From assembly GCF_030144855.1 (NCBI RefSeq), contig NC_082715.1:49600001-49664000 (forward strand): 64,000 bases of DNA. Direction: 5' to 3'. This stretch comes from Hypanus sabinus (taxonomy: Eukaryota). The position numbers were made by a program, and so were the translations under genes. Below are positions 7,466 to 53,780 of this stretch, one piece after another (position 1 is the first letter of the stretch; each line of letters starts with the position of its first letter). The notes under the pieces were generated by a model. The model saw nothing but the letters and a program-made list of their open reading frames with translations, did no database searches and was not told where the DNA came from.

Positions 7466-10352
7466 TTCAGCATGAGGATAATATGTTTAGCAGCTGGCCA
7501 CCATAACAACTAAATTCAACAGTGGCATCTTTTGGATTAAAAAAGATGATCAGATTCAGTAACTTTTGAATGTCATCCTTGCCAGTTAAAAAATAGCATG
7601 AAGAGAAATGTTATATAAATACCAAGATGGTATTACCAAGTAGGTGGAAAGAAATTATTTTCTTTGGACCACCTGCATTTCCATTATATTTTTACAGCTC
7701 ACTGGAAAATTCTATTGCTCTGGAAAATTTCTGAAGAAAATGAATTCAGTTTCTGTATTGTATTTCCTTTGGCCCATTCAACAATTCGCTAATGATATGT
7801 TAATTATGCAAAGTAATATTCAATGCAGTGTCACTTTGGTTTTTAAATTTGTAATGCAAGAATTGTTCTTGCATGGCTTTGTAAGAATTAAACAACAAAT
7901 TTTAATGAATTGTCAGAAGTGTTTTGTCTTTTTGCTTCAAGTAGCTGCTGCAAATTTTATTTTAAGAATTTTATTTGAAGAATCTGAGAGTAGTTGAAGA
8001 CAGGGCACTTCAGGTGAGAATTGGATTTGGTTTATTGCTGTCACATACCAAGATACAGTGAAAAGCTGGTCTCGCATACGGATGTACACTGTTGGGCTAC
8101 TTGCAATTATGTACTTTCTGAACTGTTGTATATTTTAATCATCCATCCCTACTCTGCCAGGTGCACCATGTTGCCTACAAAACTTGCAATTTGCAAATTC
8201 AACCAGATAAAGTTGTCTAGTTCTTTAATAACAGTGTTATGTTTTATTGCACAGCGAATAATAAATACCCAACATGTATTTCAACCATATTTTTTCTCGC
8301 TGAGTGCTTTCATACATTTCCTTACTATATGATGAGTTGATCAATCCACATCAGAGGTGCGTAAAAAAGAGCTAACTTTTAATCAGGGCAGTGCAATCGA
8401 GATTTTAAAGGCAGAGTTTCGTGGCACTTTCTCTGAGTTATGGAGCGACCAGTCAGCAAGGGGGATTTACCAGAAGGAGCCAATAAAGATAACTCGAGTG
8501 CCAGTGCAGTGCCCATTCTTTTGTGGTGTGCCAGTGTTTCAAGTGGCTTTGGCTCATCATCAGGTAAGATCAAGCATGGGTGAGGTAAATTGCCTTGTAA
8601 GTTACTCCCTCTCTGTTCTTTTTTGTTTATTTCTCATCTGTTAGGGCATTGTAATTTAGTGAGAGTGGCTCCATGAGCAGTGTTTTGTACTCTGTGGGAA
8701 GTCTGGGTGAACTTCAGTCTCCAAGGTAAACACATCTGCATCAGGTGCACTGAGCTGCAGCTCCTGAGAGAACATATTAAGGAACTAGCTCGATGACCTT
8801 TGACTCATATGGAAGAATGAGGAGGTGATAGATAGGAACTACAGGGAGGTTGCGGGAGACAGGTAACTGGGTGACTGTCTGGAGAAGGAAGGGAAATGCA
8901 CAACCAGTGCAGGGTACACCTGTGGCCGTTCCCTTCAATAATAAGTATATAACTTTAGATACTATTGACGGGGACAACCTGCTGAGGGGAGCCACAATGA
9001 CTAGGTCTCTGGCACTGAGTTTGGTGCTGTGACTCATAAGAGCAGAGAGGTGAAGAGGACTGCAGTGTTGATAAGAGATTCCTTAGTTAGAGGAAGAATA
9101 ATGAGGTTCTGTGGGCGCAGTGGAGACACACGGATGGCATGTTGTCCCTCTGGTGCCAGGACCAGGGATATCTCTGATTAGGTCCATGGCATTCTGAAGG
9201 CTGAGGGTGAGCAGGTACATATTAGCACAGTGACATAGACAAGGTGAGGAGGTCCTGAAGAGAGATTTCAGGGAACTAGGAATGCTGACATTACTTCAGC
9301 ATAGTGATCTCTGGATTACTGTGCCACATGCCAGTGTTTGTGAACGCATGGCTGAGGAACTGGGGTAGGGGTTCAGATTTATGGATCTTTGGGATCTCTT
9401 TTAGGGAAGGTTTTACCTCTACAAAAGGGACAGGTTCTACCCGAACCAGAGGGGGTCTAATATCATTGTGGGTTTAAACTAATTTGGCAAGTGGATGGGA
9501 ACTGGAGTGATAGTGCTAAAGATGAGATAGTTCATTTACAAGTAGAGGCAATATGTAGTGAGATTCTTAGCAAGATTGCAGTCAACAAAATAAATTGAAA
9601 TGTAAAAGGTGGACAAAATCAAAAAGGGTGACTACAGGACTGAAGGTGTATATTTGTATGTGCATAGTATACGGAATAAGGTAAATGAACTTGTAACAGA
9701 TTTACAGATTTGGCATGAATGAAGTAGGCATCACCGATTCATGGCTGAAAGATTATAGCTGGGAGCTTAATGTCTAAGGATACACATTATATTGAAAGAT
9801 CAGGCAGGAAGACAGAAAGTGTGCTCTGATGAAAAACTTAAATCATTAGAAAGAGATGACATGGGGTTGGAAGGTGTTGAATTATTGTGGACAGATCTAA
9901 GGAACTACATGGGTAAAAAGATTCTGCTGAAATTTAATAGACTCCTAAACAGTAGTAAGGATGAGTTCTACAAATTATAATGGGAGATAGAAAATGCATG
10001 CCCGAAGGGTAATGTTACAATAGTCATAGATTTTAATATACAGGTAGATTGGGAAATCATGTTGAGCTGGATTTCAAGAGGGGGAATTTCTAGAGTGCCT
10101 ACAAATTGGCTTTTTAGAGCAGCTCGTGATTGAGCCCACTAGGGGATCAGCTGTTCTGGATTGGGTGTTGTGCAATGAACCACAATTGATTAGAGAGCTT
10201 GATGTAAAAGAATCTTTAGGGGAAAATGATCATAATATGATCAAATTCACCCTGAAATTTGAGAAGTCAAAATCAGATATATCAGTATTACACTGGAACA
10301 AAGGGAATAACAGGCAAGAGGGAGGAGTTGGCCAGAATGAATTAGAAAAGAT

Positions 10353-12282
10353 AAATAAGTACAAACAAGCTGGATGAACTCAGCAGGTCAGGCAGCATCC
10401 GTTGAAATGGGCAGTCAGCGTTTCAGGCCGAGACCCTTCGTCAGGACTAAAGGAGGAGGGGGCAGGGGCCCTATAAAGAAGGTGGGGGGAGGGTGGAAGG
10501 TGCCAGGTGAAAAACCAATCAGAGGAAAGATCAAGGGGTGGGGAGGGGAAGCAGGGAGGGAGGGGATAGGTAGGAGAGCTGAAGAAGGAATGTAAGGGGA
10601 AAGCACTATGGATAGTAGAAGAAGGCAGAATCATGAGAGAGGTGATAGGCAGCTAGAAGAGGAGACAGAGTAAAAGTGGGATGGGGGAAGGGAGAGGGAG
10701 GGAATTACCAGAAGTTGGAGAATTTGATGTTCATACCAAGGGGCTGGAGACTACCCATATGGTATATGAGGTGTTGCTCCTCCATCCCCAGTTTGGCCTC
10801 ATCATGGCAGTAGAGGAGGCCATGTATAGACCTATCCGAATGGGAATGTGAAGCAGAGTTGAAGTGGGTGGCAACCGGGAGATCCTGTCTGTTGTGGCGG
10901 ACGGAGCGGAGGTGCTTTATAAAGCGATTCCCCCAATCTGCACCAGGTCTTGCCAATGTAGAAGAGGGAGCACCGGATGCAATAGATTACCTCAACAGAC
11001 TCACAGGTGAAGTGTTGCCTCACCTGGAAGGTCTGTTTGGGGCCCTGAATGGTGGTAAGAGAGGAGGTGTAGGGACAGGTGTAGCACTTACACTTGCAGG
11101 GATAAGTCCCAGGAGGGTGATCTGTGGGGTGGGGAAACGTGTGGACCAGGCAGTTGCAGAGGGAACGATCCCTGCGAAAAGCAGAGAGGGGTAGAGAGGG
11201 AAAGATGTCCTTCATGGAGGGGTCCTGTTGAAGATGGCGGAAGTTGCGGAGGATAATATGCTGGATCCAGAGGCTGGTGGGGTGATAGGTGAGGACAAGT
11301 GGAACACGATCCCTGTTGTGGTGACGGGAGGACGGGGTGAGGGCCGAAGTGTGGGAAATGGAGGCGATGCGGGTGAGGGCATCATTGATGACGGCAGAAG
11401 GGAAACCATGATTCTTAAAGAAAAAGGATATTTGGAATGTCCTGGAACAGAAAGCCTCATCCTTGGAGCAGATGCAGCAGAGATGGAGGAACTGGGAATA
11501 GGGAATAGCATTTTTACATTTGGCAGGGTGGGAAGAGGTATAATCAAGGTAGTTATGGGAGTCAGTAGGTTTATAGAAGATGTCAGTGGATAGTCTATCC
11601 AGAGATAGAGATCGAGAAAGGGGAGAGAAGTGTCCTAGATGGACCAAGTGAATTTGAGGGCTGGGTGAAAGTTAGAGGCAAAGTCAATGAAATTGATGAA
11701 CTGAGCATGGGCGCAGGAAGCAGCACCACTGTAGTCGTCAATGTATTGAAGGAAAAGTTGGGCAGCAGTACCAGTATAGATTTGGAGCAAAGACTGTTCC
11801 ACATAACCCACAAAGAGGCTGGAGGAGCAACACCTCTTATACCGTCTGGGTAGTCTCCAGCCCCTTGGTATGAACATCGAATTCTCCAACTTCCGGTAAT
11901 TCCCTCCCTCTCCCTTCCCCCATCCCACTTTCAGTCTGCCTCCTCTTCTAGCTGCCTATCACCTCTCTCATGTTTCTGCCTTCTTCTACTACTCATAGTG
12001 CTTTGCCCTTACATTCCTTCTTCACCTCTCCAGCCTATCCCCTCCCTGCTTCCCCTCCCTACCCCTTGATCTTTCCTCTGATTGGTTTTTCACCTGGCAC
12101 ATTCCACCCTCCCCCCAGCTTCTTTATAGGGCCCCTGCCCCCTCCTCCTTTAGTCCTGACGAAGGGTCTTGGCCCGAAATGTTGACTGCTCATTTCAACG
12201 GATGCTGCCTGACCTGCTGAGTTCATCCAGCTTGTTTGTACGTGTTTATTTGACCATAGCATCTGCAGTGTACTTTGTGTTT
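10353..12282 (-). mobile_element. Penelope-like retroelement (5'-truncated RT plus GIY-YIG) with inverted pseudo-LTRs
   Basis: Minus ORFs contain FLQYIDD, STDIFYKPTDSHNYLDYTSSHP..CKNAIPYSQF and VIYCIRCSLFYIGKT. Segment 10353-~10790 is an inverted copy of ~11817-12250. A 13-bp TSD aattagaaaagat lies at 10340-10352 and 12283-12295. Confidence 0.92.
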
Positions 12283-22239: not shown

Positions 22240-24045
22240 AAATCAAGCAACATAGGTGACAACAGGGCTTTTGCTTCCAGATAAGTTCCATGCCTTCGGT
22301 GCTTGCTTTGAACAGCAAAATGTGGAGGAACCATCACTAACTCCTACAACCTCCAACAGTCCTGTGATTTCAGTCTTTGAGACTGATGTACAAGCAGCCT
22401 TCAGGAGGGTAAACCCAAGGAAAGTATCCAGCCCAGATGGGATACGTGCCTAAATACAAAAGATCTGGGCTGATCAACTGGCTTGAGTGTTCACTGAGAC
22501 CTTTAACCCCTAACTTCTGTAGGCTGAGGTACCCACCTGCTTCAAGTAGGTTTCAATTATACCAGTGCTGAAGAAGAATGTGGTAACCTGCCTCAATGAC
22601 TATCTTCCAGTAGGGCTTGCATCCACAGTGATAGTATTTTGAGAGGTTAAAGATGAAACATTGCAGCTCCTGCCTGAGAAGCAACCTGGAACTGCTCCAA
22701 TTTGCCTCCTGGGGCGGCAGTTGCACAGCTGATACCATCTCATTGGCCCTTCACTCAGCCCTAGCACATCTGGACAGTAAAGGTACATACATCAGGATGT
22801 TCTTTAGCAACTACAGCTTGGTATTCAATACTATCATCCCCTCAAAACTAATCAATAAGCTTCAAGACCTTGGCGTCAATATCTCCTTGTGCAATTGGGT
22901 CCTTGATTCCCTCACTTGCAGACTCCAGTCAGCTCAGATTGGTAACAACATCTCCCCCACAATCTCGATCAGCACAGGTTCCCCACAAGGCTTTGTGTTT
23001 GGCCCCTTGCTCTTATGCACTTATGACTTATGATTTATCACTTTGCACTTATGACTGTGAGGCTAAGCACAGCTCCAATGCCATATTTAAGTTTGCTGAC
23101 AACACCACTGTTGTAGGCTGATGAATCAGAATATAGCAGGGACATTGAAAATTTGGCTGAGTGGCGTCATGACAACAAACGTCAGCAAGACCAAGGAGCT
23201 GATTATTAACTGCAGAAGCAGCAAATCAAAGATCCCTGAGCCAGTCATCACTGGCGGAACAGAGCTGGAGAGGGTCAGCACTTTTAAATTCCTCAGTGTT
23301 GTCATTTCAGAGGACCTGTCCTCAGCCCAGTTCGTAAGTGCAATTACAAAGAAAGGGTGGAGGCACCTCTACTTAGGAGTTTGCGTAGTTTCAGCATGAC
23401 ACCTAAAACTTTGACAAACTTCTATAGATGTGTAGTGGAGAGTATACTGACTGGCTGTATGACAGCCTGGTACAGAAATACCGTGCCAATGCTCTTGAAT
23501 GGAAAATCCTACAAAAAGTAGTGGATGTGGCCCCATCTATCATGGTTAAAGCCCTGCCCACCATTGAGCACATCTACACAAAGTGCTGTAGCAGGAAAGC
23601 AACATCCACCATCAGTGACACTCCACCCAGGTCATGCTCTCTTCTCACTACTACCATCAGGAAGAAGATACAAGAACCTCAGGACTCAGTCCATCATGTT
23701 CAGGAACAGTTATTACCCCTCAACCATCAGGCTCTCTAACTTCACTTGCTCCATATTGTGATGTTCACAGAAGCTATAGAGTCACTTTCAGGGACTCTTA
23801 ATCTCAAATTCTTGATATTGTTTGTTTGTTTGTTTATTTATTATTATTATTATTATTATTTCTTTCCTTTTGTATTTGCAGTTTATTGTCTTTTTCACAT
23901 GATTGAACTCCCAAGCTGATCCAATCTTTCATTGATTCAATTATAGTTATTCTATTATGAATTTATTGAGTATGCCCACAAGAAAATGAATCTCAAGGTT
24001 GTATGTGGTGACATACTTCAATAATAAATTTTCTGTGAATTTTGG
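22240..24045 (+). mobile_element. Rex1/Babar-like LINE (RT domain, degraded)
   Basis: CLNDY.PV.L, LQFAS, FNTIIPSKLI.KL.DLG, STGSPQG, KFADNTTVVG and HPGHALFSLLPSGRRY motifs. Confidence 0.85.
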
Positions 24046-24673
24046 AATTAATTTTGAATTAGTGCATACATAGAACTAATAATTGTTTTCCCTTTGGGCA
24101 AAAAGGGGGGGTGAGGGAAGGAATTATTTTTAATTAAATAATTTGAATATTTGATGCAGCTTACTAGCATTGTTCATGAATGAGACTTCAAATATTCTTG
24201 ACTTATGCCATGATGTCAGGATCATTGAGAACAATAGTTTTATTTTTGTCCTGACTTCTGAGACTTTTCTGTAAAGAAAGAAAAATCAATTCAAACATGA
24301 AAACTCCCAGTCTCTGTTCTAGCTAAATTAAAATGTTCAGTCTCTTTAGTTACAAATATTTAACATATTTTGAACATTTTATTTTGTGGATTGGTTTACT
24401 TTTCAGTAAATTTGTCATCTTGTCCCATTTAGCTAACTTAGTGTACCATAGCATGTGGGCCTGCCTTCCCTACACACTTTCACAAGTGAAAGACCAACCT
24501 TGTATACCAATGAATGACATGAGGTTTCAACTCACCCCATACATATGATGTATATCCTTGATTCTGATTAAACTCTCATCCTATTTCATGGAAGAATATA
24601 GGATGATATTAAACTAGATTTATGGGGGGGGAGGGGCAAGGAAGTCTTGAAATCCTGGCAGAACCTAAGTTAT

Positions 24674-27600
24674 AGACAATAGGTGCAGAAGTAGACCATT
24701 CAGCCCCTCGAGTCTGCACCGCCATTCTGAGATCATGGCTGATCATTCACTATCAATACCCAGTCCCTGCCTTGTCCCCATATCCCTTGATTCCCCTATC
24801 CATCAGATATCTATCTAGCTCCTTCTTGAAAGCATCCAGAGAATTGGCCTCCACCGTCTTCCGAGGCAGTGCATTCCACACCTCCACAACTCTCTGGGAG
24901 AAGAAGTTCTTCCTCAACTCTGTTTTAAATAACTGACCTCTTATTCTCAATCCATGCCCTCTGGTACTGGACTCTCCCAACATCTGGAACATATTTCCTG
25001 CCTCAATCCTATCAAATCCTTTAATTATCTTAAACGTTTCAATCAGATCCCCTCTCAATCTCCTCAATTCCAGCGTGTACAAGCCCAATCTCTCCAATCT
25101 CTCTGCGTAAGACAGCCCTGCCATCCCAGGAATCAACCTAGTGAATCTACGCTGCACTTCCTCAAATGCCAGAATGTCCTTCCTTAAACCTGGAGACCAA
25201 AACTGTACACAATATTCCAGTTGTGGTCTCACCAGGGCCCTGTACAAATGCAAAAGGACATCCTTGCTCTTGTACTCAATTCCCCTTGTAACAAAGGCCA
25301 ACATTCCATTTGCCCTCTTCACTGCCTGTTGCACTTGCTCATTCACCTTCATTGACTGGTGAACTAGGACTCCTAGGTCTCTTTGCATTTCTCCCTTACC
25401 TAACTCGACACCATTCAGACAATACTCTGCCCTCTTGTTCCTGCTTCCAAAGTGGATAACTTCACATTCATTCACATTGAATGACATCTGCCAAGTATCT
25501 GCCCACTCACCCTGCCTATCCAAGTCTCCTATCGTCCTCTTCGCATGTCACACTGCCACCCAGTTTAGTATCGTCAGCAAACTTGCTGATATAGTTTTCA
25601 ATGCCCTCATCTAAATCGTTGACATAAATCGTAAAGAGCTGTGGTCCCAATACAGAGCCCTGTGGTACCCCACTATTCACCTCCAGCCAGTCCGAGAAAC
25701 ACCCATTCACTGCTACCCTTTGCTTTCTATCTGCCAACCAGTTTTCTATCCATGTTGAAACCCTGCCCCCAATGCCATGAGCTCTGATTTTACTCACCAA
25801 TCTCCTATGTGGCACCTTATCGAATGCCTTCTGAAAATCTAGGTATACAACATCCACTGGCTTACCCTCGTCCAACATCCTTGTTACACCCTCAAAAAAC
25901 TCCAACAGATTAGTCAAGCATGGTTTGCCCTTGGTAAATCCATGCTGACTCGGCCTAATCCTATTTCTGCCATCAAGATGTGCCACTATTTCGTCCTTAA
26001 TAATGGACTCAAGCATCTTCCCCACGACTGACGTTAGGCTAACAGGGCGATAGTTCTCCGTTTTCTCCTTCCCTCCCTTCTTGAAAAGTGGGATAACATT
26101 AGCCACTCTCCAATCTTCAGGAACTGATCCTGAATCTAAGGAACATTGGAAAATGATTACCAATGCATCCGCAATTTCCTGAGCCACCTCTTTTAGAACC
26201 CTCAGATGCAGACCATCTGGACCCGGGGATTTATTAGCCTTCAGTCCTACCAGTCTACTCATCACAGTTTCTTTCCTGATGTCAATCTGTCTCAGTTCCT
26301 CTGATATCTTATGACCCTGGCCCATCCATACATCTGGGAGATTGCTTGTGTCCTCCCTGGTGAAGACAGATCTAATGTACGCATTAAATTCTGTTGCCAT
26401 TTCCCTGTTTCCCATAACAATTTCTCCCAATTCATTCTTTAAGGGGCCAACATTGTTTTTAACTATCTTCTTTCTCTTCACATAGCTAAAAAAGCTTTTG
26501 CTATCCCCTTTTATATTCCTGGCTAGACTGAGCTCATACCTGATTTTTTCTCTCCGTATTGCTTTTTTAGTTAAGATCTGCTGTTCCTTAAAACTTTCCC
26601 AATCATCTGTATTCCCACTCATCTTAGCCCTGTCATACTTCTTTTTCTTTAATGCTATACAATCTCTGACTTCCTTTGTCAACCACTGTGGCCCCTTCCC
26701 CCTCTTTGAATCCTTCCTTCTCATTGGAATGAACTGCTTTTGCATCTTTTGTATTATGCCCAAGAATATCTGCCACTGCTGATCCACTGTCTTTCCTGCC
26801 AGGGCATCCGCCCATTTAACTTTGGCCAGCTCTTCCCTCATGGCTCCGTAGTCTCCTTTATTTAATTGCAACACTGACACCTCTGATCTGCCCTTATCCC
26901 TCTCAAATTGTAGATAAAAACTTATCATGTTATGATCACTACTTCCTAATGGCTCCTTTACTTCAAGATCACTTATCAATTCCTGTTCATTACACATCAC
27001 CAAGTCCAAAATAGCCTCGTTCCTGGTTGGCTCAAGCACAAGCTGTTCCAAAAATACATCCCTTAGACACTCCACAAACTCCCTATCCTGGGGTCCAGCA
27101 CCTACCTGATTCTCCCAGTTCACCTGCATCTTGAAATCTCCCATAACGACTGCATTACCTTTAACACATGCCAATGTTAACTCCCTAATCAACTTGTACC
27201 CAATATCCTCGCTACTGTTTGGGGGCCTGTACACAACACCCATTAGGGTCTTTTTACCCTTACTGTTCATCAGCTCAATCCACACAGACTCTACTTCCCC
27301 TGTTCCCAAGTCACCTCTTGCTAAGGACTGAATCTCATTCCTCACCAACAGGGCCACCCCACCCCCTCTCCCCATATTTCTGTCTCTACGATAGCACGTA
27401 TACCCTGGTACACTCAATTCCCAGGCCTGATCCCCTTGCAGCCATGTCTCCGTTATCCCAACAATATCGTAGTTCCCCATTTTCATCTGAGCTTCAAGCT
27501 CATCTGTCTTATTTCTGACACTACGCGCATTCAAGTATAGAATTCTTAGCCCGTTCCTCCTCTCTTTGCTTAAAACACTGTCTACTGTACCTAACCCAGC

Positions 27601-28082
27601 TCCTTGAACTTCTATCGGGCTAATTGCACACTGAATTTTGATGACCTTCTCAAGATCACCCAAACCTTCCACACATTTAACCCCATGCTCCTTCTGACCA
27701 ACCCTCTGGATCTGGATCCCTGCCCCCTGCACATCTAGTTTAAACCCCCCCGAGCAGCACTGGCAAACACTCCTGCAAGAATGTTAGTACCCCTCCGGTT
27801 CAGATGTAGACCGTCCCTTCAAAACAGATCCCAATGTCCCTGGAACAAAGACCAATTATCCAAAAACCTGAACCCTTCCTTCCTGCACCATGCTCTCAGC
27901 CTCGTATTAATGTGCATAATCATTCTATTCTTCGCCTCACTCACACGTGGCACAGGTAGCAATCCCGAGATTGTCACCCTGGAGGTCCTGCCTTTCAGCT
28001 TCACTCCTAACTCCCTGAACTCTCTAAGCAGGACCCCCTCACTCACCTTACCTACATCGTTGGTCCCTACATGGACCACTAC
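24674..28082 (-). mobile_element. Young 5'-truncated CR1 LINE: ORF1 esterase end plus near-intact ORF2 (APE-RT) with one frameshift
   Basis: 27819-28079 VHVGTND (SGNH esterase); 25516-27732 a 738-aa APE+RT frame ([46 protein letters not shown]); 24753-25523 the C-terminus. A 7-bp TSD aagttat lies at 24667-24673 and 28083-28089. Confidence 0.97.
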
Positions 28083-28316: not shown

Positions 28317-28429
28317 GAATGCTCCAGAATGGCAAGAAGTTTGACTCTTCTCGAGACAGAAACAAGCCTTTCAAGTTCAAAATTGGCAAACAGGAAGTGA
28401 TTAAAGGCTGGGAAGAAGGCATGGCACAG
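28317..28429 (+). CDS. FKBP1B: FKBP prolyl isomerase 1B (FKBP12.6), coding exon 3
   Basis: ttccag|GA ATG CTC CAG AAT...GCA CAG|gtattt. The 113-nt phase-1 exon encodes (G)[39 protein letters not shown] at positions 31-32 is the FKBP12.6 signature (FKBP12 has ED). Confidence 0.95.
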
Positions 28430-28867
28430 GTATTTTTGGATGAACATAATTTCAGAATTATCTTACTATAAAGGCTGTACAGTAAATATTTTATGGATAT
28501 TTGGAGTCTTAAGATCATATTAAATACTTAACGTGTCTCTTACTTATTCATTAAAACATTTAAAGATGCATATTTCATCTTAAAGTTGCATCAACACCAA
28601 ATGTATTTTGGTTTAACTATGTGGGCTGAAAAATCACTAATCAAAGAGCTGAGCTTTGAGGCCAGAACAGTTTAAATGAAATCCAACTTGATTTAGTCTT
28701 CAAAAGAGGATGCTGAAGGCATGATGAAATGGAAGAGAGAGTTTGCCAATGACAAAATAAGAGCATCAGATAAGAACTTTTTTCTACTATGGAAGTTGCA
28801 TATTTTACCACATAGGAATAGGGTGTAAGCTGAGGAATTCCACTAATAATCAAAATTGTTTCAATAA

Positions 28868-28999
<132 letters not shown>

Positions 29000-30037: not shown

Positions 30038-31205
30038 TTCAGAAGGCATTCGATAAGGTGCCACATAGGAGATTGGTGAGTAAAATCAGAGCTCATGGCA
30101 TTGGGGGCAGGGTTTCAACATGGATAGAAAACTGGTTGGCAGATAGAAAGCAAAGGGTAGCAGTGAATGGGTGTTTCTCGGACTGGCTGGAGGTGAATAG
30201 TGGGGTACCACAGGGCTCTGTATTGGGACCACAGCTCTTTACGATTTATGTCAACGATTTAGATGAGGGCATTGAAAACTATATCAGCAAGTTTGCTGAC
30301 GATACTAAACTGGGTGGCAGTGTGACATGCGAAGAGGACGATAGGAGACTTGGATAGGCAGGGTGAGTGGGCAGATACTTGGCAGATGTCATTCAATGTG
30401 AATGAATGTGAAGTTATCCACTTTGGAAGCAGGAACAAGAGGGCAGAGTATTGTCTGAATGGTGTCGAGTTAGGTAAGGGAGAAATGCAAAGAGACCTAG
30501 GAGTCCTAGTTCACCAGTCAATGAAGGTGAATGAGCAAGTGCAACAGGCAGTGAAGAGGGCAAATGGAATGTTGGCCTTTGTTACAAGGGGAATTGAATA
30601 CAAGAGCAAGGATGTTCTTTTGCATTTGTACAGGGCCCTGGTGAGACCACACCTGGAATATTGTGTACAATTTTGGTCTCCAGGTTTAAGGAAGGACATT
30701 CTGGCAATTGAGGAAGTGCAGCGTAGATTCACTAGGTTGATTCCTGGGATGGCAGGGCTGTCTTACGCAGAGAGATTGGAGAGATTGGGCTTGTACACGC
30801 TGGAATTGAGGAGATTGAGAGGGGATCTGATTGAAACGTTTAAGATAATTAAAGGATTTGATAGGATTGAGGCAGGAAATATGTTCCAGATGTTGGGAGA
30901 GTCCAGTACCAGAGGGCATGGATTGAGAATAAGAGGTCAGTTATTTAAAACAGAGTTGAGGAAGAGCTTCTTCTCCCAGAGAGTTGTGGAGGTGTGGAAT
31001 GCACTGCCTCAGAAGACGGTGGAGGCCAATTCTCTGGATGCTTTCAAGAAGGAGCTGGATAGATATCTGATGGATAGGGGAATCAAGGGATATGGGGACA
31101 AGGCAGGGACTGGGTATTGATACTGAATGATCAGCCATGATCTCAGAATGGCGGTGCAGACTCGAGGGGCCGAATGGTCTACTTCTGCACCTATTGTCTA
31201 TTGTC
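30038..31205 (+). mobile_element. Young 5'-truncated CR1, ~99% identical to the 24674-25835 segment, in inverted orientation
   Basis: ORFs 30007-30357 and 30350-31120 repeat the RT/C-terminal peptides of the minus copy. Ends in a ctattgtctattgtc tail. Confidence 0.97.
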
Positions 31206-46762: not shown

Positions 46763-47519
46763 ACAGGACCATAAGGTGTAAGTAGATCATTGAAAAAGAC
46801 CTTGGCAAATCTGATTCATTCACCACTTTCTCCCCCTTTCCCCAATATTCTTATAATTACAAATCTTACATTTACATGTACACAACGATTTTACTCCCAC
46901 AATTCTCTGTGGCATGGAGTTCCAAAGAAATCCTTCCTCACATCAGTACTAAATGGGCACCCCCTCATTCTGAGACTATGCCCTGTTTTTGGACTTCCTT
47001 GTGAAAAGAAACATCCTGTCAGTATTTTACCAATCTAACTTCCTAACAATCTTAACTTTGAGTCAATCCCTACCCCCCCCCCCATATCTAGAATCATCCA
47101 AATGAACCTTAAAAACAAGCTGTTTACTGCAGTCTCTCTCGTGCAGTAGGGATGCCTTTCTTTTACACTGCAACCCTTTTAAGTTAATACCAATCTCCCA
47201 ATGCCCCTTTGCTGCACTTGTCCAAGCTTTCAGTATTTTGTATACAAAACGCCCCAAATTCTTTTACGCTGCAGATGTTTGCAATTTTCTCTATCTTCGT
47301 CCGCCTCCCAAAATAATCAACCTAGCATTTTAACTTGAATCCATGAATGAACCAGACTTTCAGTAGTAGATGAAAGAAATGTGGATTGGGGAACTGTTAC
47401 AGTGTTGGATGTGAGTAGTCTTGAGCTTCTTAAGCATTTCTTCCCTTCCACAATCACTGAACGTTTGGGAAAGGGATGGGGGAATAAAGGCTCCTTCGCC
47501 TTTGGCATGGCTTCACTAC

Positions 47520-47810
47520 TCCCGGGCAATGACCCGTCCACCACTAAAGAATCCGGGCAGCCCTGACTCACCCTTCGCCCTCTCACTTTTTTTGTCGGTT
47601 TCCCCTCAACAAAAGCAGCCTAACGCCTCGACGGAAACATCGTCATGGCAACCGCTGCACTTCCGGTCAAGCGGAGCTGGAACTGGCGGGGTGGGGGGGC
47701 GACAGTATTCCTGAGAACCTTCCCCTGGGCTGGAGTCGTCAGGAGGTATGAGTGCGGTTAACTGTGGAAATAGCAACGTAACACATCCTTGCTGCTAAAA
47801 TGGCAGGAGA
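47520..47810. promoter_or_regulatory. CpG-rich, probably bidirectional promoter
   Basis: Local CpG cluster; ETS site ACTTCCGG at 47659-47666; RFX X-box-like ATCGTCATGGCAAC at 47639-47652; G-rich GC box at ~47687-47700; outward-facing donors AGG|GTGAGT (minus, 47572/47571) and GAG|GTATGA (plus, 47745/47746). Confidence 0.75.
47572..47660 (-). other. WDCP: Probable non-coding exon 1 of WDCP (pseudogene)
   Basis: Consensus donor gg|gtgagt upstream of the ATG-containing exon, matching the WDCP layout of a non-coding exon 1 plus a large exon 2. The TSS is not determinable. Confidence 0.6.
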
Positions 47811-48149
47811 GCATACACATTGCCGCCACTTTCCCAATAAATCAACCTGCGTTGTTTTGGTCATATTTTCCATTTCCTTGTTCGATGGAGGGCTGAGCGT
47901 TTTAAAATTTTTTTAAATGACCCAAAAATCAGCCAATCCAAAACTACCCGAATGACCGTCCACCAAAAGCATATCAAACAACATGCCGGAAAATGAAAAG
48001 CCATATATTTATTAAGCAAGAACAAAGACTATGCGCTCGTGGTATACAAATCATTTTGAATTGGATAAAGCAATGGTCTGTACCCAAGTATTTTTTCAGA
48101 AATTAAAAAAACAAAAATTGCCGTAAGTTTCAATTGGCCAGTAGCACCT

Positions 48150-49290
48150 GTATAACTATCTTTTTAAAAGAGCATTTAAATTTAAAGCCCCGTCATCATA
48201 ACTGGAAAGGGGAGAAAACAATTTAGCTGTAAATTGCAGAGGATGAGGGTCAGATGGATAGGACAAAGTGAACACCTTTGATAGGCTGAAGCCATGTTAG
48301 CCATGGTGATAAGCCGTTTACAAAGCGAAATATGCATTGATTAATGAGGCTGTGAGGAGAGAAAAACAAAGGGTCATATAAAAAGTAAAATCTAGGTTAG
48401 AGTTATTCAAAAGAACTGAGTGCAAAGAGAATTTAAAAAATGCCAGAAGATTTTGCTTTGTACATGGAGAGGGTAGAACTGAATCAACATACAAAGTAGA
48501 TAACTTTTCAGGAGAATTTTAAGATGTAGTGCTGTTCCTCAAATTTACATTTGTCTTGTTAGAAGTGTGCAGACTTAAGACAAATTAGAAATGGATTGGA
48601 TAGAGAATTATAGCAACATGTGTAATTCATCACCCAATTTACATTTGTTTTTTTCCAAAGTAGAGGAGGTTGGATCATAAACATCTAATACAATACAATA
48701 TTGAAGAAGTAAAAGCAAACAGCTGGAGGAACTGTTGGGTTCCTGAACCATGGGAAGAGTTGATGTAAAAGAACAGATGTATTATTTACAGCAGTTGCAT
48801 TGGGATTGCAGCAAGAAGGGGCATAGAAAATTGTATGCAAGTGAAGACCACAGAATCACAAAGGGAATGGTCCCTTCAGAATACCAAGAGGAAAGAAAAG
48901 GGGTTGATATAACTAATAGGGGAATTTTGCTGAAGTGGTAGAAAAGGAAAAGGATGAACAGTTGTATGTGGAGTCTGGTGGAAGAAAAAGTGAGGAGTAG
49001 GGATGATCTATCCTTATTCTTGGCCAGCGGGGTTTGGTAAGAGCAATGGCACAGAAGATATTTGTAACAGGATTGAGGGCTTCATGGCATAGAAGTCATG
49101 ATGGAGGAACAGATATTGCAGAGATGGAGAAACAAGGAGAATTAAATGGAGTCCTGACAAAAGGAATCTGTAGACTTATCATATATGTTTGTCACTAACC
49201 TTCCTCCTGAGAGTAAAACAGAAAGATCTGGAAAGAGAAAGAGGAATCATGTGAGGAGAGCAGGTTTGGCAGCAAAAATAATAAAAATTT
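48150..49290 (-). mobile_element. Old degraded Penelope-like element
   Basis: Purine-rich plus strand with patches matching the 10.7-11.7 kb copy (e.g. aatggagtcc, tctgtagacttat, ggatgaacagttg). Confidence 0.4.
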
Positions 49291-49414
49291 TGAGTTTGGG
49301 GACTAGCATAAAACTCTTTTATTTACAAGTTGAGGGGGCATGAACAGGACTGAAACTACAAATGTGCCATGTAACCCACAAAAAGATAGACATTGTTTGG
49401 ATCCATGCAATTTC

Positions 49415-49758
49415 AAAGTAGATCTATTAACAAAGATCCTATATGTCACCATGTACAACCCTGAGATTAATTTTCTTATAGGCATACACATTAAATCCAA
49501 GAAACAATAGAAACAGTGAAAGACTACACCCAACAGATCAGACAAACAACTAATGTGCAAAAGACAACAAACTCTGCAAATACAAAAGAAAAAATATCAA
49601 TAAATATCGAGAACATGAGAAGAAGAGCCCTTGAAAGTGATTTCATAGGTTGTGGGAACATTTCAGTGGTGGAGGCAGTAAAGCTGATGAAGTTATCCCC
49701 TCTGGTTCAAGAGCGTGCTGGTTGAGGGGTAATAACTGTCCCTGAACCTGGTGTTGTG
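49415..49758 (-). mobile_element. Rex1-like 3' tail, target of the LTR element; resumes at 51192-51300
   Basis: atatgtcaccat.tacaaccctgagatt...aataactgt.cctgaacctggtg on the left, continuing ...ctgatggcagcaatgagaagagagc after 51192. Confidence 0.65.
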
Positions 49759-51191
49759 TATTATGTTTTGTAACTTCAAAACATTAAACTAATTCAAAGG
49801 AAGACACAGGAGTCTAAAATGTGAGTCTACCATCATGTTCGCTTGAAGCAAGGTGTCAAGTATCACTTGGTAGAGTCATTACATATGGAATTCTTGTATT
49901 TTTACATATAACCCATAGTGAGTTATTTAAATGAACAAGATTGATTAATCGAACATTATTTACAATATCACTCAAATATTACTTAAATATTAAATAAACA
50001 CCACTCCACCCTGCTTAGCTATAAACTCCATCTCAATATAGAATGCATCTCAACTACATTTGTATATACAGTATACTATATAATAAAACTACTATATTCA
50101 GGCATCCACAGGATAGTATATATTAATTTGATCCAGTCAGGCCCAAGGATTTAATTGCTGTGGAAGATTTCTTACTCTTGTGGATAATATCTTTCCTGAC
50201 AGCTGCTTGGTAGGTGAGACAGCTCTGGACACCCTACTTTCTAGTACTTTCCTTTTTCTTCTTCTAGTTTGTGCATCTTGATCTTGGAAAGGTGCATTTA
50301 GTTCACTGGAGTATTATTAATCCTCCTATTGCTACCTTTACAATCTGAACTCTCCTCTTGGTTTCAGCATCCTGCTGGGCTTTGGTCTTTGCATCTACTT
50401 CTACAAGCAGCTTTCTGTCTCCCACTTGAAGTTCATGTAATAACCTTAATGCACACAGAGTAGATTCTGGTTCTTTAAACTCACAAAAGCTGAATGCTTG
50501 CAACTTAATGATGTTCCTTGAACTCTCTTCTAGCTTAAAATGAAGCCATATTTTGCAAGTAACTACATGATTAACATATCAGAAGCTTTCTCAGATACGT
50601 TGCCTAGAAAAATTGTTGTAGTCAGAACATTGCTTTTGTCATTTCCACACTTCCTCTGAGGGGCATGATCCATCCCTGGTCCAAAATACTTTCCAACTGG
50701 AGGAACAGAGGGTCAGCACCTGTTTGGCCTCTGTTGGCCCATGGTTCATGATGTACAGCATGGAGACAGTTGCAACAGCATCCAGTACCATTCTTAATTC
50801 ACTTTCAGTTGAGGCTATTGCAAGGACGTGACATGCAAATGGTGGATGGATCTCTAATCAAGTTGCAGTTGCCTCAACCACTCACGTCCCCACAAAGCTG
50901 GCCCTCCTGATTTTACCCTTGATATGTTTGAATTTTCAAATGCCAATCTTCAATACTGCTGTGCTGTAACTTCAAAATGTTAAACTAATTCAAAGAAAGA
51001 CATGGGAGTCCGGAATGTGAGTCTAACTTCTTGTTTACTTTAAGCAAGGCACTGTGTATCACATGATAGTGTCATGATGTATATAATTCATGTATTTTAC
51101 ATATAACCCGTAGTGAATTATTGAAATAAACAAGAATGCTTAATCAAACAATGTTTACAATTTTACTCAAGTATTACTCAAATACACAACA
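49759..51191 (-). mobile_element. Non-autonomous Gypsy-derived LTR element carrying an RBM25 retro-fragment
   Basis: Direct repeats of ~240 bp at 49759-50003 and 50957-51191. PPT-like aagcagggtggag abuts the 3' LTR. Protease-end remnant VKSGGPALWGREWLRQLQLD*RSIHHL at ~50830-50920. Integrase C-terminal remnant ERYYP.RVRNLPQQLN at ~50140-50200. Confidence 0.85.
50240..50720 (-). pseudogene. RBM25: Processed RBM25 fragment (RRM and flanks)
   Basis: VGKYFGPGMDH...TTTIFLGNVSEKASDMLIM*LLAKYGFILS*KRVQGTS/KLQAFSFCEFKEPESTLCALRLLHELQVGDRKLLVEVDAKTKAQ...ETKRR...YSSELNAP matches the RBM25 RRM (TTVFVGNISEKASDMLIRQLLAKCG...LQAFGFCEYKEPESTLRALRLLHDLQIGEKKLLVKVDAKTKAQ). No introns; contains stops and frameshifts. 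Confidence 0.9.
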
Positions 51192-51399
51192 GTTTGGGTC
51201 TAATGTATCTTCTTTCTGATGGCAGCAATGAGAAGAGAGCTGTAATGTTCTATGTACTGCTTGAATACCTTCGTATTCAAGGCAGGATGGTCTGAAAACC
51301 CTCTGCTTTTTCCTTGAAAAGAAGCTCAAACATTTGCCCTCTCCTAACATACATATTTGTCTGGACAAACCCATTCTCACATTGAACAACTTAAGCTCA

Positions 51400-51515
51400 A
51401 TTAAATTGACTACATGGCTTTCCTTCAGTTGCCCTCCATTTTCCTCCTGCATCCCATGTGTGGGCTGGTAGGTTATGAGGCCATTGCACATTGCCCCTTA
51501 ACTCTACTATGGGCA
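51400..51515 (+). mobile_element. V-SINE (HE1-like) core fragment
   Basis: tggctttccttc...tccattttcctcc..catccca...ggtaggtta...ggccattg...attgcccct. Confidence 0.5.
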
Positions 51516-51528
51516 GTCCTGATTATGA

Positions 51529-51710
51529 ACAAGAGAAAATCTGCAGATGCTGGAAATCCAAGCAACACGCACAAAATGCTAAGGGAACTCAGCAGGCCAG
51601 GAAGCATCTATGGAAAAGAGTACAGTCAACATTTTGGGCTGAAACCCTTCGGCAGGAATGCTACCAAAGGTTTTGGCTCTGAAACGTTGACTATACTCTT
51701 TTCCATGGAC
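51529..51710. mobile_element. Penelope-derived mini-element (minus) fused to a short inverted copy
   Basis: Minus cctgccgaagggtttcagcccaaaatgttgactg abuts plus ctaccaaaggttttggctctgaaacgttgacta. Confidence 0.7.
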
Positions 51711-52449
51711 AGTCCCAAGCCTGGCTGCAAAAGGAGAAGGGTTGCACATTGGGCAAGCAACCCTATCCTGTAAAAACCCAGAGTGACAGAACGCTAATAG
51801 AAGCTCCAAAGACCTCATCCCTTGGAGAGGAAAGATCTTCAACTAGATGGGCCACACTTGGGCCCAGGATGGTCTCCCAGCCTTTCAACCTATCCTAAGA
51901 TCAATCTAACCCTTCCTTCCCATATAGTCCTGCATTTTTCTTTCATCTATCTGCTTCTTTAAGTGTCTCTTAAGTGTTATTAATGTATCTGCCTGTCCCA
52001 CTACGCATTGCAGAGTTTTCCACTCACCTACCTGTGTTAAAAAAAACCTACCTCTGATATCCCCCCCCATAGCTTCCTCCAGTCACCTTAAATTTATGCC
52101 CCCTTGCAGTAACCATTCCCATTCTCTGCAAAAGTCTCAGGCTGTTCTCTCTACCTGTGCCTCTTAACATTCTGTACCTCTCCATCAAGTCACCCCCATC
52201 TTCTGTAATTGCTTGTGAATAAAAAAAATTGCCAATGTACGAAATATACAATGCTAAAAATACTCAGCAAGTGAATGATCATCTGTTGAGATACAAATGG
52301 AATTAATGTATCAGGTTCATGACTTTTCATCAAAACCTGGAGAAGTTAGAAGCTGAACATAGTTGCAATGGAGGGGTGAGCACCCTACAGAGATAGCAGA
52401 TGCTCCACAATTCTATTTATTTTGGACTGCTGTCTGCAAATTAAAGGCA

Positions 52450-53780
52450 AATACAACCCCACTGTTTTAGTAAGGGAGGGAATAGTTAACCAGCAGGCCT
52501 GATATTGGTAGTAGAGAAAATGCTAAAATCCATAGTAAAAGATGTGATATTAAGAATCTTTGCAGATAATTATACAGTTGAGCATAAGTTAATAGTTAAC
52601 AAGCAGGAGAGACAAAGGAGAATGGGTTGATGGTGTGTACTTGGATTTTCAGAAGGCCTTTGACAAGGTGCCACACATGAGGCAGCTTAACAAGCTACAA
52701 GCCCAGGAAAGATTCTAGCATGGATAAAGCAGTGGCTGATTCGCAGGAGCAAAGAGTGAGACTAAAGGAAGCCTTTTCTGGCTGGCTGCCAGTGACTAGT
52801 GGTGTTCCACAGGGGTCTATATTGGAACTGATTTTTTTTACATTATATGTCAATGATTTGGATGATGGAATTGATGGCTGTGTTGCAAAGTTTGCAGATG
52901 ATATGAAGCTTGCTGGAGGGACAGGTAGTTTTGAGGAAGTAGAGAGGCTACAGGAGGACTTAGATAGATTAGGAGAATAGCAACAAAATGGCAGATGGAA
53001 TACAATATCAGTAAGTACTTTCGTAGAAGAAATAAAAGGGTTGTCTATTTTCTAGTTGGAGAGAAAATATAAAAAACTGATGTGCAAAGGGACTTGGGAG
53101 TCCTTGTGCAGGATTCCCTAAAAGTTAATTTCCAGGTTGAGCCTGTGGTGAGGAAGGCAAATGCAATGTTATCATTCACTTCAAGAGGACTAGAATATAA
53201 AGCAAGGATGTAATTTTGAAACTTTATAAAGCACTGGTGAGGTCTCACTTGGAGTATTGTGAGTAGGTCTGGGTTCCTTATCTTAGAAAGTATGTGTTGG
53301 AACTGGAGAAGGTTCAAAGGAGGTTCACCAAAATGATTCCAGGATTGAGTGGCTTCTCATATGAAGAGTGTTTGATGACTCTGGGCCTGGATTCACTAGA
53401 ATTCAGAAGAATGAAGGGTAACCTCATTGAAACCTATTGAATGATGAAAGGCCTTGATAGAGTGAATGCGGAGAGGATGTTTCCAATGGTGGGAGAGTCT
53501 CAGACCAGAGGACACAGTCTCATAATAGAGGGGTGTCCTTTTAGAACAGAGATGAGGAGGAATTTCTTTAGCTAGAGAGTCTGTGGAAATCTTTGCTTCA
53601 GGCAGCTGCAGAGGGCAAGTCTTTAGGTATATTTAAGGCAGAGGTTGACAGATTCTTGATTGGTCAAGGCATGAATTGAAACGGAAGAAGTTAGAAAATT
53701 GGAGCTGAGAGGAAAATTGGATCAGCCATGATGAAATGGTGGGCATGACCTAATTCTGCTTCTGTAGTTTACGGTCTTAT
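52450..53780 (+). mobile_element. CR1 LINE RT and 3' end
   Basis: YLDFQKAFDKVPH, VTSGVPQGS and KFADDMK, plus a CR1 3' UTR. Confidence 0.88.

What the first reader, a model, noticed from the sequence alone, without database searches (positions are those of the whole stretch)
49759..51191. LTR retrotransposon that swapped its RT/RNase H/integrase core for a spliced host splicing-factor mRNA (RBM25)
Seen (minus strand): 5' LTR, Gypsy protease-end remnant, then ~480 bp of intronless RBM25 (pre-RRM, RRM and following helix) in the same orientation, then an integrase C-terminal remnant, PPT and 3' LTR. The whole unit is inserted in a Rex1-like tail. There is no poly(A) tail or TSD around the RBM25 piece. 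Established: LTR elements and retroviruses capture cellular mRNA by template switching during reverse transcription; this is well known for oncoretroviruses and plant or insect elements but rarely described for vertebrate Gypsy elements. Inference: a non-autonomous gene-capturing family that may have amplified RBM25 RRM fragments genome-wide. Younger copies might encode a Gag/PR-RRM fusion or yield RNAs regulating RBM25.
Basis: partly seen in the sequence, partly recalled or inferred. Interest (0 to 1): 0.8.

Follow-up and report, generated by a model that had tools for sequence, protein, structure and literature searches.

The report
Dead retrotransposon carrying spliced RBM25 fragment
An old, broken jumping element in a shark- or ray-like genome carries a piece of the host's spliced messenger RNA for the splicing factor RBM25, most likely picked up while the element copied itself; this is a real and neat fossil of an already described process, probably a one-off rather than a spreading family.

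Summary
The structure is real. On the minus strand: 5' LTR, two Gypsy pol scraps, 533 bp of spliced RBM25, pol C-terminal tail, polypurine tract and 3' LTR, nested in an older LINE tail. The RBM25 piece is 72% identical (125/173 codons) to a shark isoform, includes an alternative exon seen only in the shark cluster, and crosses splice junctions. It has 2 stops, 3 frameshifts and a 72-nt deletion; its decay (15/82 residues) matches neutral drift at the LTR age (K2P 0.197).

Corrections: gag, most of the protease and the primer-binding site are also gone, the 5' LTR stops 5-10 nt short, and the two pol scraps are in swapped order. This fits several template switches plus a premature second-strand transfer in one reverse-transcription cycle, giving a dead-on-arrival copy. 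That argues against the proposed amplifying family or Gag/PR-RRM fusion. Against my reading: a 7/8 repeat flanks the RBM25 piece (p about 0.02-0.04, post hoc), so DNA-level insertion is not excluded.

LTR-mediated retroposition is published, including Gypsy cases in zebrafish. Genome-wide copy number could not be tested. New member of a known kind; interest 0.3.

The parts
51192..51240 (-). Older host LINE 3' tail, upstream part (Rex1/Babar-like label is recalled)
   Evidence: 89% over 37 nt to 23636-23672. The relative lies beside weak RVT_1 (E 0.008) and ALKBH8_N (E 0.004) Pfam matches.
51192..51196 (-). Upstream copy of a probable 5-bp target-site duplication of the whole element
   Evidence: Both flanks overlap by 5 nt on the empty-site relative at 23687-23691. 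The copies are 3/5 identical and the upstream register rests on 6/9 matches, so this is weak.
50965..51191 (-). 5' LTR, starts with TG, lacks the last 5-10 nt that the 3' LTR has; no PBS follows
   Evidence: LTR alignments; junction sequence.
50909..50962 (-). Gypsy pol scrap A (18 codons, one stop; start of the RT region). It follows scrap B in intact relatives but precedes it here.
   Evidence: Best of 127,894 windows in a profile scan, 40.6 vs next 24.8; tiles behind B in alignment A1. Weak by tblastn alone, E 0.3-2.
50780..50916 (-). Gypsy pol scrap B (end of protease plus linker; one stop, one frameshift). Its first 6-8 nt are shared with the end of A.
   Evidence: residues about 369-414 of a 1319-aa relative.
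50247..50779 (-). Spliced RBM25 fragment: end of exon 3, 48-nt alternative exon (50767-50720), exons 4-6, 72-nt deletion near 50370, most of exon 7; 2 stops, 3 frameshifts (exon numbers recalled from the human gene)
50221..50246 (-). 26 unassigned nt at the 3' junction. The first 7-8 resemble both the end of scrap B and a stretch of RBM25 26 nt upstream.
50017..50220 (-). Gypsy pol C-terminal tail (RYPxR-type end, frameshifted) and 3' untranslated leader
   Evidence: 14 of 32 long relatives end with this motif.
50004..50016 (-). Polypurine tract
   Evidence: 11 of 13 purines directly before the 3' LTR; 0.2% of 13-mers in the element are as purine- and G-rich.
49759..50003 (-). 3' LTR, complete
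49754..49758 (-). Downstream copy of the probable 5-bp target-site duplication
   Evidence: The downstream flank aligns without gaps to the empty-site relative from 23687, 36 of 44.
49410..49758 (-). Older host LINE 3' tail, downstream part
   Evidence: 63% over 387 columns to 23692-24042, more diverged than the LTR pair.

Best explanation
An LTR-mediated retrocopy made in one faulty reverse-transcription cycle of a Gypsy (Ty3) element. A spliced RBM25 mRNA was packaged with the element's RNA. Minus-strand synthesis copied the 3' LTR region, PPT and pol tail, jumped about 2.6 kb upstream, and switched to RBM25 mRNA near the end of exon 7. It copied back to exon 3, skipping 72 nt at a short repeat (this deletion may also be later). 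It returned to the element RNA at point x (the end of scrap B), copied B, then jumped at a 6-8-nt shared word to the not-yet-copied scrap A and ran off A at x, where the RNA was broken or already cut by RNase H. Plus-strand strong-stop DNA then transferred early, before the PBS, which explains the short 5' LTR and the loss of PBS and gag. Both outer LTR ends were intact, so integrase inserted the product into an old LINE tail. It has decayed neutrally since and does nothing as a protein. Shown: the parts, their order, splicing, loss of PBS and gag, neutral decay. Inferred: co-packaging, the order of switches, single-cycle origin, single copy.
For: The Gypsy flanks are discontinuous: about 865 codons of pol are missing after A, and about 368 codons (gag, most of the protease) before B. 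RBM25 is sense-oriented, 5'- and 3'-truncated, with no poly(A), the pattern in Tan et al. 2016 (PMC5131818). Scraps B and A tile the relatives with at most 2 codons between them, yet lie swapped; the same 6 nt read as the end of A and the start of B. The RBM25 deletion joins two Asp-Glu-coding spots. The 5' LTR ends just before where a PBS belongs; in HIV-1, 20 of 23 large deletions found with 5'-LTR primers started upstream of the PBS (PMC12657518). Forced copy choice and deletions with insertions are described for retroviral RT (PMC3187697). The RRM core differs at 15 of 82 residues; neutral simulation at half the LTR distance gives 15.4 (95% 9-22), so capture and integration fit one age.
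Against: A 7/8 direct repeat flanks the RBM25 piece (p 0.015-0.041 for 8-mers, not significant for 12- or 15-mers; post hoc). It could be a re-copied stretch under this model, but also a true TSD. Microhomologies are read through proteins of relatives; no parental or intact-element DNA was available. The age match is loose: 0.075-0.125 substitutions per site all fit. The element's own TSD is weak (3/5). 26 nt at the 3' junction are unexplained. The premature-transfer analogy comes from HIV-1, not Gypsy.
Confidence: 0.7

Rival explanations
1. DNA-level patchwork. A full-length Gypsy element inserted first. A later double-strand break at point x was repaired with several microhomology-guided template switches, which used RBM25 mRNA or cDNA as a patch, deleted most of the interior and put local fragments A and B back in swapped order.
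For: All rearrangements centre on one point; a 7/8 repeat at the RBM25 borders; microhomology joints are also typical of break repair (own knowledge); the age test allows an RBM25 piece somewhat younger than the LTRs.
Against: It needs a deletion ending within 5-10 nt of the 5' LTR end and another just before the pol tail, both natural reverse-transcription landmarks; half the LTR age (0.05) is rejected at P 0.017.
Confidence: 0.14
2. A LINE-made retrocopy, primed at the A/G-rich end of exon 7, landed in an existing Gypsy element with a short TSD; later independent deletions removed gag, PBS and most of pol.
For: The 3' border is A/G-rich; the 7/8 flanking repeat; CR1-type LINEs fill the window, and non-LTR elements track vertebrate retrocopy counts (10.64898/2026.06.26.734816).
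Against: No poly(A) or LINE tail; pol does not resume after the repeat but jumps to its C-terminal tail; the swapped scrap A is not explained; at least three further events are needed.
Confidence: 0.07
3. First reader's family model. An RBM25-carrying non-autonomous Gypsy derivative with PBS and gag arose earlier and spread; this copy is a further deleted descendant.
For: Secondary retroposition of such chimeras is published (PMC5131818), as are multi-copy gene-carrying ERVs in crocodilians (PMC4299795); the pol/RBM25 junction is in frame.
Against: A chimera broken at x would lack scrap A, so A starting within 2 codons of x would be a coincidence. There is no sign of an earlier constrained or separate history. 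One copy in 64 kb. 0 of 263 proteins held at that point combine RBM25 and Gypsy motifs; this is weak, since dead copies are not annotated as proteins.
Confidence: 0.09

Closest known systems
LTR-mediated retrocopies of animals (Tan et al. 2016, PMC5131818; abstract, sections 5, 6, 9 and rows of Supplemental Table 8 read)
   Same: Partial spliced mRNA replacing part of the internal ORF, flanked by discontinuous LTR-element sequence, both LTRs present, no poly(A), short similarities at switches, multiple switches possible. Gypsy164, Gypsy-115/97 and Gypsy35 flank zebrafish cases.
   Different: Older (about 10% per lineage, against under 9% divergence in their zebrafish rows); from a cartilaginous fish, which they did not sample; PBS lost and pol scraps swapped, which I did not see described in the sections read; no expression data.
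Defective proviruses from premature second-strand transfer and nonhomologous template switching (HIV-1: PMC12657518, abstract, part of Results and part 1 of Discussion read; review PMC3187697, passages)
   Same: 5' LTR cut short upstream of the PBS and joined to internal sequence; deletions with insertions in one cycle.
   Different: Those are exogenous retroviruses in somatic cells with no host mRNA; this is a germline Gypsy insertion with captured mRNA.
Gene-capturing ERVs of crocodilians, CrocERV29 (KIT-ligand) and CrocERV31 (nectin3) (PMC4299795, passages)
   Same: Host mRNA inside an LTR element of a non-mammalian vertebrate.
   Different: Those are retroviral, multi-copy, with intact ORFs under purifying selection; this is Gypsy, fragmentary and neutrally decayed.
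Fish 'K02A2.6-like' Gypsy gag-pol proteins (Labeo KAI2644841.1, Acipenser MGH0157174.1, Misgurnus; 'Mag clade' label is recalled)
   Same: Protease-end/RT-start linker (63-72% identity over about 30 residues) and RYPxR-type C-terminus; RT-RNase H-integrase domain order.
   Different: These are relatives, not the donor family; no chondrichthyan-named member was retrieved.

Membership tests
LTR-mediated retrocopy (Tan et al. 2016) | Insert derives from spliced mRNA (crosses exon junctions) | tested here: met
   The window joins the alternative exon straight to exon 4 as in RefSeq isoform X2; X1 has 4 extra residues there, marking an intron. The exon 4|5 border is marked by an exon-skipping model (P0101) and a partial model (P0027), and the window is continuous across it. 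A read-through model marks the exon 6 end inside the deleted part. The 5|6 border is recalled only.
LTR-mediated retrocopy (Tan et al. 2016) | Flanked on both sides by LTR-element sequence that is discontinuous | tested here: met
   Pol residue about 414 on one side, the last 17-25 of 1319 on the other.
LTR-mediated retrocopy (Tan et al. 2016) | Both LTRs present with intact outer ends | tested here: met
   The 5' end is TG; the 3' end reads TA rather than CA, one transition away.
LTR-mediated retrocopy (Tan et al. 2016) | No poly(A) tail on the insert | tested here: met
   No A-run of 6 or more in 1433 nt.
LTR-mediated retrocopy (Tan et al. 2016) | No TSD around the insert | tested here: inconclusive
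   7/8 repeat at the borders, p 0.015-0.041 for k=8, not significant for k=12 or 15.
LTR-mediated retrocopy (Tan et al. 2016) | Microsimilarity between mRNA and element at the switch points | tested here: inconclusive
   Visible for the A/B joint and the internal deletion through protein relatives; the two Gypsy/RBM25 joints need parental DNA.
LTR-mediated retrocopy (Tan et al. 2016) | Co-transcribed from the LTR | not testable with these tools
   No expression data.
Gypsy/Ty3 superfamily (donor element) | Pol similarity to elements with protease-RT-RNase H-integrase order | tested here: met
   The scraps match proteins with RVP, RVT_1, RT_RNaseH and Integrase_H2C2 in that order.
Gypsy/Ty3 superfamily (donor element) | LTRs, PPT and a 4-6-bp TSD | tested here: inconclusive
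   LTRs and PPT met; a 5-bp overlap on the empty-site relative with copies 3/5 identical.
Non-autonomous, trans-mobilised LTR family | Retains a primer-binding site behind a complete 5' LTR | tested here: not met
   The 5' LTR is short and runs directly into pol scrap A; Rfam finds no tRNA-like match in 47000-53000.
Non-autonomous, trans-mobilised LTR family | Multiple dispersed copies with shared junctions and different TSDs | not testable with these tools
   No eukaryotic genome collection on hand; one copy in the window.
Functional retrogene or fusion gene | Open frame under purifying selection | tested here: not met
   2 stops, 3 frameshifts; 15 of 82 core changes vs 15.4 expected under neutrality, while 119 of 123 fetched RBM25 cores are at least 90% identical to the shark core; no Pfam RRM match in any of 3 frames.
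LINE-mediated processed pseudogene | Intact mRNA 3' end with poly(A) or LINE tail, inside a continuous target | tested here: not met
   Ends inside the coding region; the target is discontinuous.

The most novel reading that the evidence does not exclude
This copy is a worn member of a multi-copy Gypsy derivative in cartilaginous fishes that carries a lineage-specific RBM25 splice isoform. Better preserved copies keep PBS and gag, encode an in-frame protease-RRM fusion or feed small RNAs against a core splicing factor, and one such copy lies just upstream of a CpG-island promoter.
Probability: 0.1. Interest if true: 0.65.

Novelty: new member of a known kind. Interest (0 to 1): 0.3.

Why it matters
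As it stands, it extends LTR-mediated retroposition to a cartilaginous fish, a group whose 14,081 catalogued retrocopies are discussed with non-LTR elements in the passages I saw (10.64898/2026.06.26.734816). It is also an unusually legible fossil of one reverse-transcription cycle: swapped neighbouring fragments and a PBS-less 5' LTR suggest that error types measured in retroviruses also shape germline Gypsy insertions. It preserves an old RBM25 splice isoform. None of this changes a general view. It would matter more only if a multi-copy, expressed family turned up.

Tried and rejected
Pfam on 4 element pieces and on 3 frames of the RBM25 piece: no family. PDB search with the RRM half: 25 weak RRM matches, best E 0.056. 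A word-based homologue search with a 46-residue protease-end piece found no candidate; HMMER on the 34-residue piece then gave 13 hits, 2 of them repetitive junk that I dropped. The profile search (94 hits among 8000 candidates scored) returned no chondrichthyan-named donor family. An ungapped scan for the pol tail did not find it, because the tail is frameshifted; the frameshift-aware scan did. An ungapped scan did not place the upstream flank's last 12 nt at the empty-site junction (best 8/12 elsewhere), which is why the TSD is called weak. Summed tblastn scores did not rank the shark proteins in the top 8 of 128; I take the sum to be inflated by repeated low-complexity hits in long proteins and did not use it. 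The reading of the 3' end as the exon 10 start (KLEEEKGK-like frame) was rejected: a 1-nt deletion in the exon 7 lysine run explains the same bases without a further jump. An 11/14 inverted match of the unassigned 26 nt to the LTR is within chance by my estimate. Rfam: 1 sub-threshold match, E 0.82. No date in years: the shark pedigree rate (7e-10 per generation, PMC10587355, passages) would give over 1e8 generations, so it does not apply here. No paper on RBM25 exon structure was found (listing only). File 1 of the Tan et al. supplements could not be searched and may describe PBS status.

Full report
OBSERVATION. The finding is in the sequence as described, on the minus strand. Two direct repeats at 51191-50965 and 50003-49759 align at 184 of 222 columns (23 transitions, 15 transversions; K2P 0.197, bootstrap 0.134-0.270). 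The window holds no other copy. A purine-rich 13-mer abuts the second repeat. Both outer flanks match one older repeat copy at 23636-24042, which lies beside weak RVT_1 and ALKBH8_N Pfam matches; calling it Rex1/Babar-like is recalled. The two flanks overlap by 5 nt on that empty-site relative, which suggests a 5-bp TSD. Its copies agree at only 3 of 5 bases, and an ungapped scan did not place the upstream flank there, so the TSD is compatible but weak.

THE RBM25 PIECE. A 65-residue frame gave 123 hits among 172 candidates; the 120 listed are RBM25/RRM proteins by name or domain. The second hit belongs to a three-member cluster: Heptranchias perlo isoforms X1 and X2 and one unnamed transcript-derived protein. 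Frameshift-aware alignment to X2 gives 125 of 173 codons identical, with 3 frameshifts, 2 stops and a 24-codon in-frame deletion that joins two Asp-Glu spots. It begins with the end of exon 3 and a 48-nt alternative segment (13 of 17 residues identical to the unnamed protein). That segment occurs in 3 of the 121 proteins with the RRM motif, all in the shark cluster (one of the 121 is the window's own piece). This points to a cartilaginous fish; that the repeats look batoid is recalled only.

Splicing is shown without genomic DNA. X1 and X2 differ by four residues exactly at the joint between the alternative segment and exon 4, so an intron lies there, and the window has the X2 joint. A fish model that skips exon 4 and a partial model that starts at exon 5 mark the next border, across which the window is continuous. 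A read-through model marks the end of exon 6 inside the deleted stretch. Exon numbers and the 5|6 border are recalled from the human gene.

The piece is dead. In the 83-residue RRM core, 119 of 123 fetched RBM25 proteins are at least 90% identical to the shark, whereas the window differs at 15 of 82 scored residues. Neutral simulation at half the LTR distance predicts 15.4 (95% 9-22); 0.05 and 0.15 substitutions per site are rejected at P 0.017 and 0.046. Capture and integration thus fit one age, loosely.

THE GYPSY PARTS. A 34-residue scrap found 13 proteins by HMMER; 11 align as the end of a Gypsy protease and the linker to RT, and 2 were repetitive junk. A profile search gave 94 hits, including full-length gag-pol of 1250-1350 residues with RT, RNase H and integrase domains; none was named from a chondrichthyan. 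Scrap B (50916-50780) matches at E 7e-13 and corresponds to residues about 369-414 of a 1319-residue relative. The stretch before it, scrap A (50962-50909), is the best of 127,894 windows for the motif at residues 417-434 (40.6 vs 24.8), although weak by tblastn alone. So A follows B in intact elements, with at most two codons between them, but precedes it here. The same six bases serve as the end of A and the start of B. After RBM25 and 26 unassigned bases comes the pol C-terminal tail: top hit of the window, reached by 0 of 500 local shuffles and exceeded by 1 of 20 whole-window shuffles; 14 of 32 long relatives end in this motif. The 5' LTR stops 5-10 nt before the end seen in the 3' LTR and runs straight into A. 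There is no room for a primer-binding site, and gag and most of the protease are gone as well as RT, RNase H and integrase.

MECHANISM. The best reading (0.7) is repeated template switching in one reverse-transcription cycle. Minus-strand synthesis went from the pol tail to co-packaged RBM25 mRNA, back to the element RNA at point x, through B, forward at the shared word to the end of A, and off the end of A at x, where the RNA was broken or already degraded. A single RNA read once explains why A starts where B ends; this step is inference. An early plus-strand transfer explains the short 5' LTR and lost PBS. In HIV-1, 20 of 23 large deletions recovered with 5'-LTR primers began upstream of the PBS (PMC12657518; abstract, second part of Results, first part of Discussion read). 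Forced copy choice and deletions with insertions are reviewed in PMC3187697 (passages). The product kept both outer ends, so it could integrate, but it cannot be primed again. The B/RBM25 joint is in frame, a one-in-three chance and without consequence, since no gag or open frame precedes it.

AGAINST THIS. An 8-mer at the end of B recurs with one mismatch just after the RBM25 piece. Against random position pairs in the element, p is 0.015-0.041 for 8-mers and not significant for 12- or 15-mers; the test is post hoc, and the same bases also resemble RBM25 sequence 26 nt upstream. The repeat fits an RT that left and re-entered near x, but also a true TSD. I therefore keep DNA-level break repair in an already integrated element at 0.14 and a LINE-made retrocopy followed by deletions at 0.07. 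An ancestral chimera broken at x would lack A, and 0 of 263 proteins combined both motif sets, but this is weak evidence and genome-wide copy number could not be searched.

KNOWN SYSTEMS. Tan et al. [quoted passage not shown] Of the 11 zebrafish rows I saw, 5 are LTR-mediated and 3 of these are beside Gypsy elements. So vertebrate Gypsy capture is in print. Crocodilian ERVs carry KIT-ligand and nectin3 in several copies under purifying selection (PMC4299795, passages), which is what a successful family looks like and this locus does not. The locus meets four tested features of an LTR-mediated retrocopy (splicing, discontinuous flanks, both LTRs, no poly(A)); two are inconclusive (TSD, microsimilarity) and expression is untestable. 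It fails the tests for a mobilisable non-autonomous element (PBS) and for a functional retrogene.

NOVELTY. I found no report of an RBM25 retrocopy or of an LTR-made retrocopy in a cartilaginous fish in the listings (titles and abstract starts only; 20 of 33, 20 of 186, 20 of 86 and 12 of 29 papers listed; subscription papers are not covered). A 2026 preprint counts 14,081 retrocopies in cartilaginous fishes and, in the 12 of 15 passages shown, ties them to non-LTR elements. PMC10587355 was read in passages for a mutation rate that I did not apply. Searches were seen as listings.

VERDICT. Observation confirmed and extended; interpretation partly supported. A new member of a known kind, old and dead, with an unusually readable record of how it was made. 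Interest 0.3; 0.65 if a multi-copy expressed family exists, which I put at 0.1.

Noticed in passing
window 50767-50720 (-): A 48-nt in-frame alternative RBM25 segment between exons 3 and 4, seen only in the shark protein cluster among the RBM25 proteins fetched, is preserved in the retrocopy. It is probably a cassette exon, because the Heptranchias models start inside it without exon 3 (inference).
   Followed up: partly
window 47401-47850: CpG-rich island with ETS-like and RFX-like motifs (recalled) and donor-like sites on both strands. The element lies 1.9 kb away, with its 3' LTR pointing towards it.
   Followed up: no
window 43220-40900 (-): A WDCP copy that looks broken: Pfam WDCP positions 1-66 and 302-422 in different frames, a stop after about 63 codons, and a LINE-like insertion between. 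The block may be a decayed duplicate.
   Followed up: partly
window 28317-28996 (+): The last two coding exons of FKBP1B (Pfam FKBP_C; best PDB match FKBP12.6, E 3e-21) sit between inverted 99.1%-identical CR1-type arms at 24672-25835 and 30038-31201. Four short patterns for the first exons found nothing in the window. Possible young inversion, duplication or misassembly.
   Followed up: partly
window 25516-27783 (-): 755-codon open stretch of a young CR1-type LINE ORF2, endonuclease and RT by eye.
   Followed up: no
window 51593-51723: A 63-bp-arm inverted repeat with a 5-nt loop, 71% complementary, 400 bp upstream of the 5' LTR; looks like a short interspersed repeat.
   Followed up: no
window 50246-50221 (-): 26 nt at the RBM25/pol-tail joint remain unassigned; the RBM25 piece also starts and ends within about 15 nt of exon borders.
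   Followed up: partly
window 10351-10787 and 11817-12249: Inverted pair, 93% identical, around a reverse-transcriptase-like ORF at 10832-11671.
   Followed up: no
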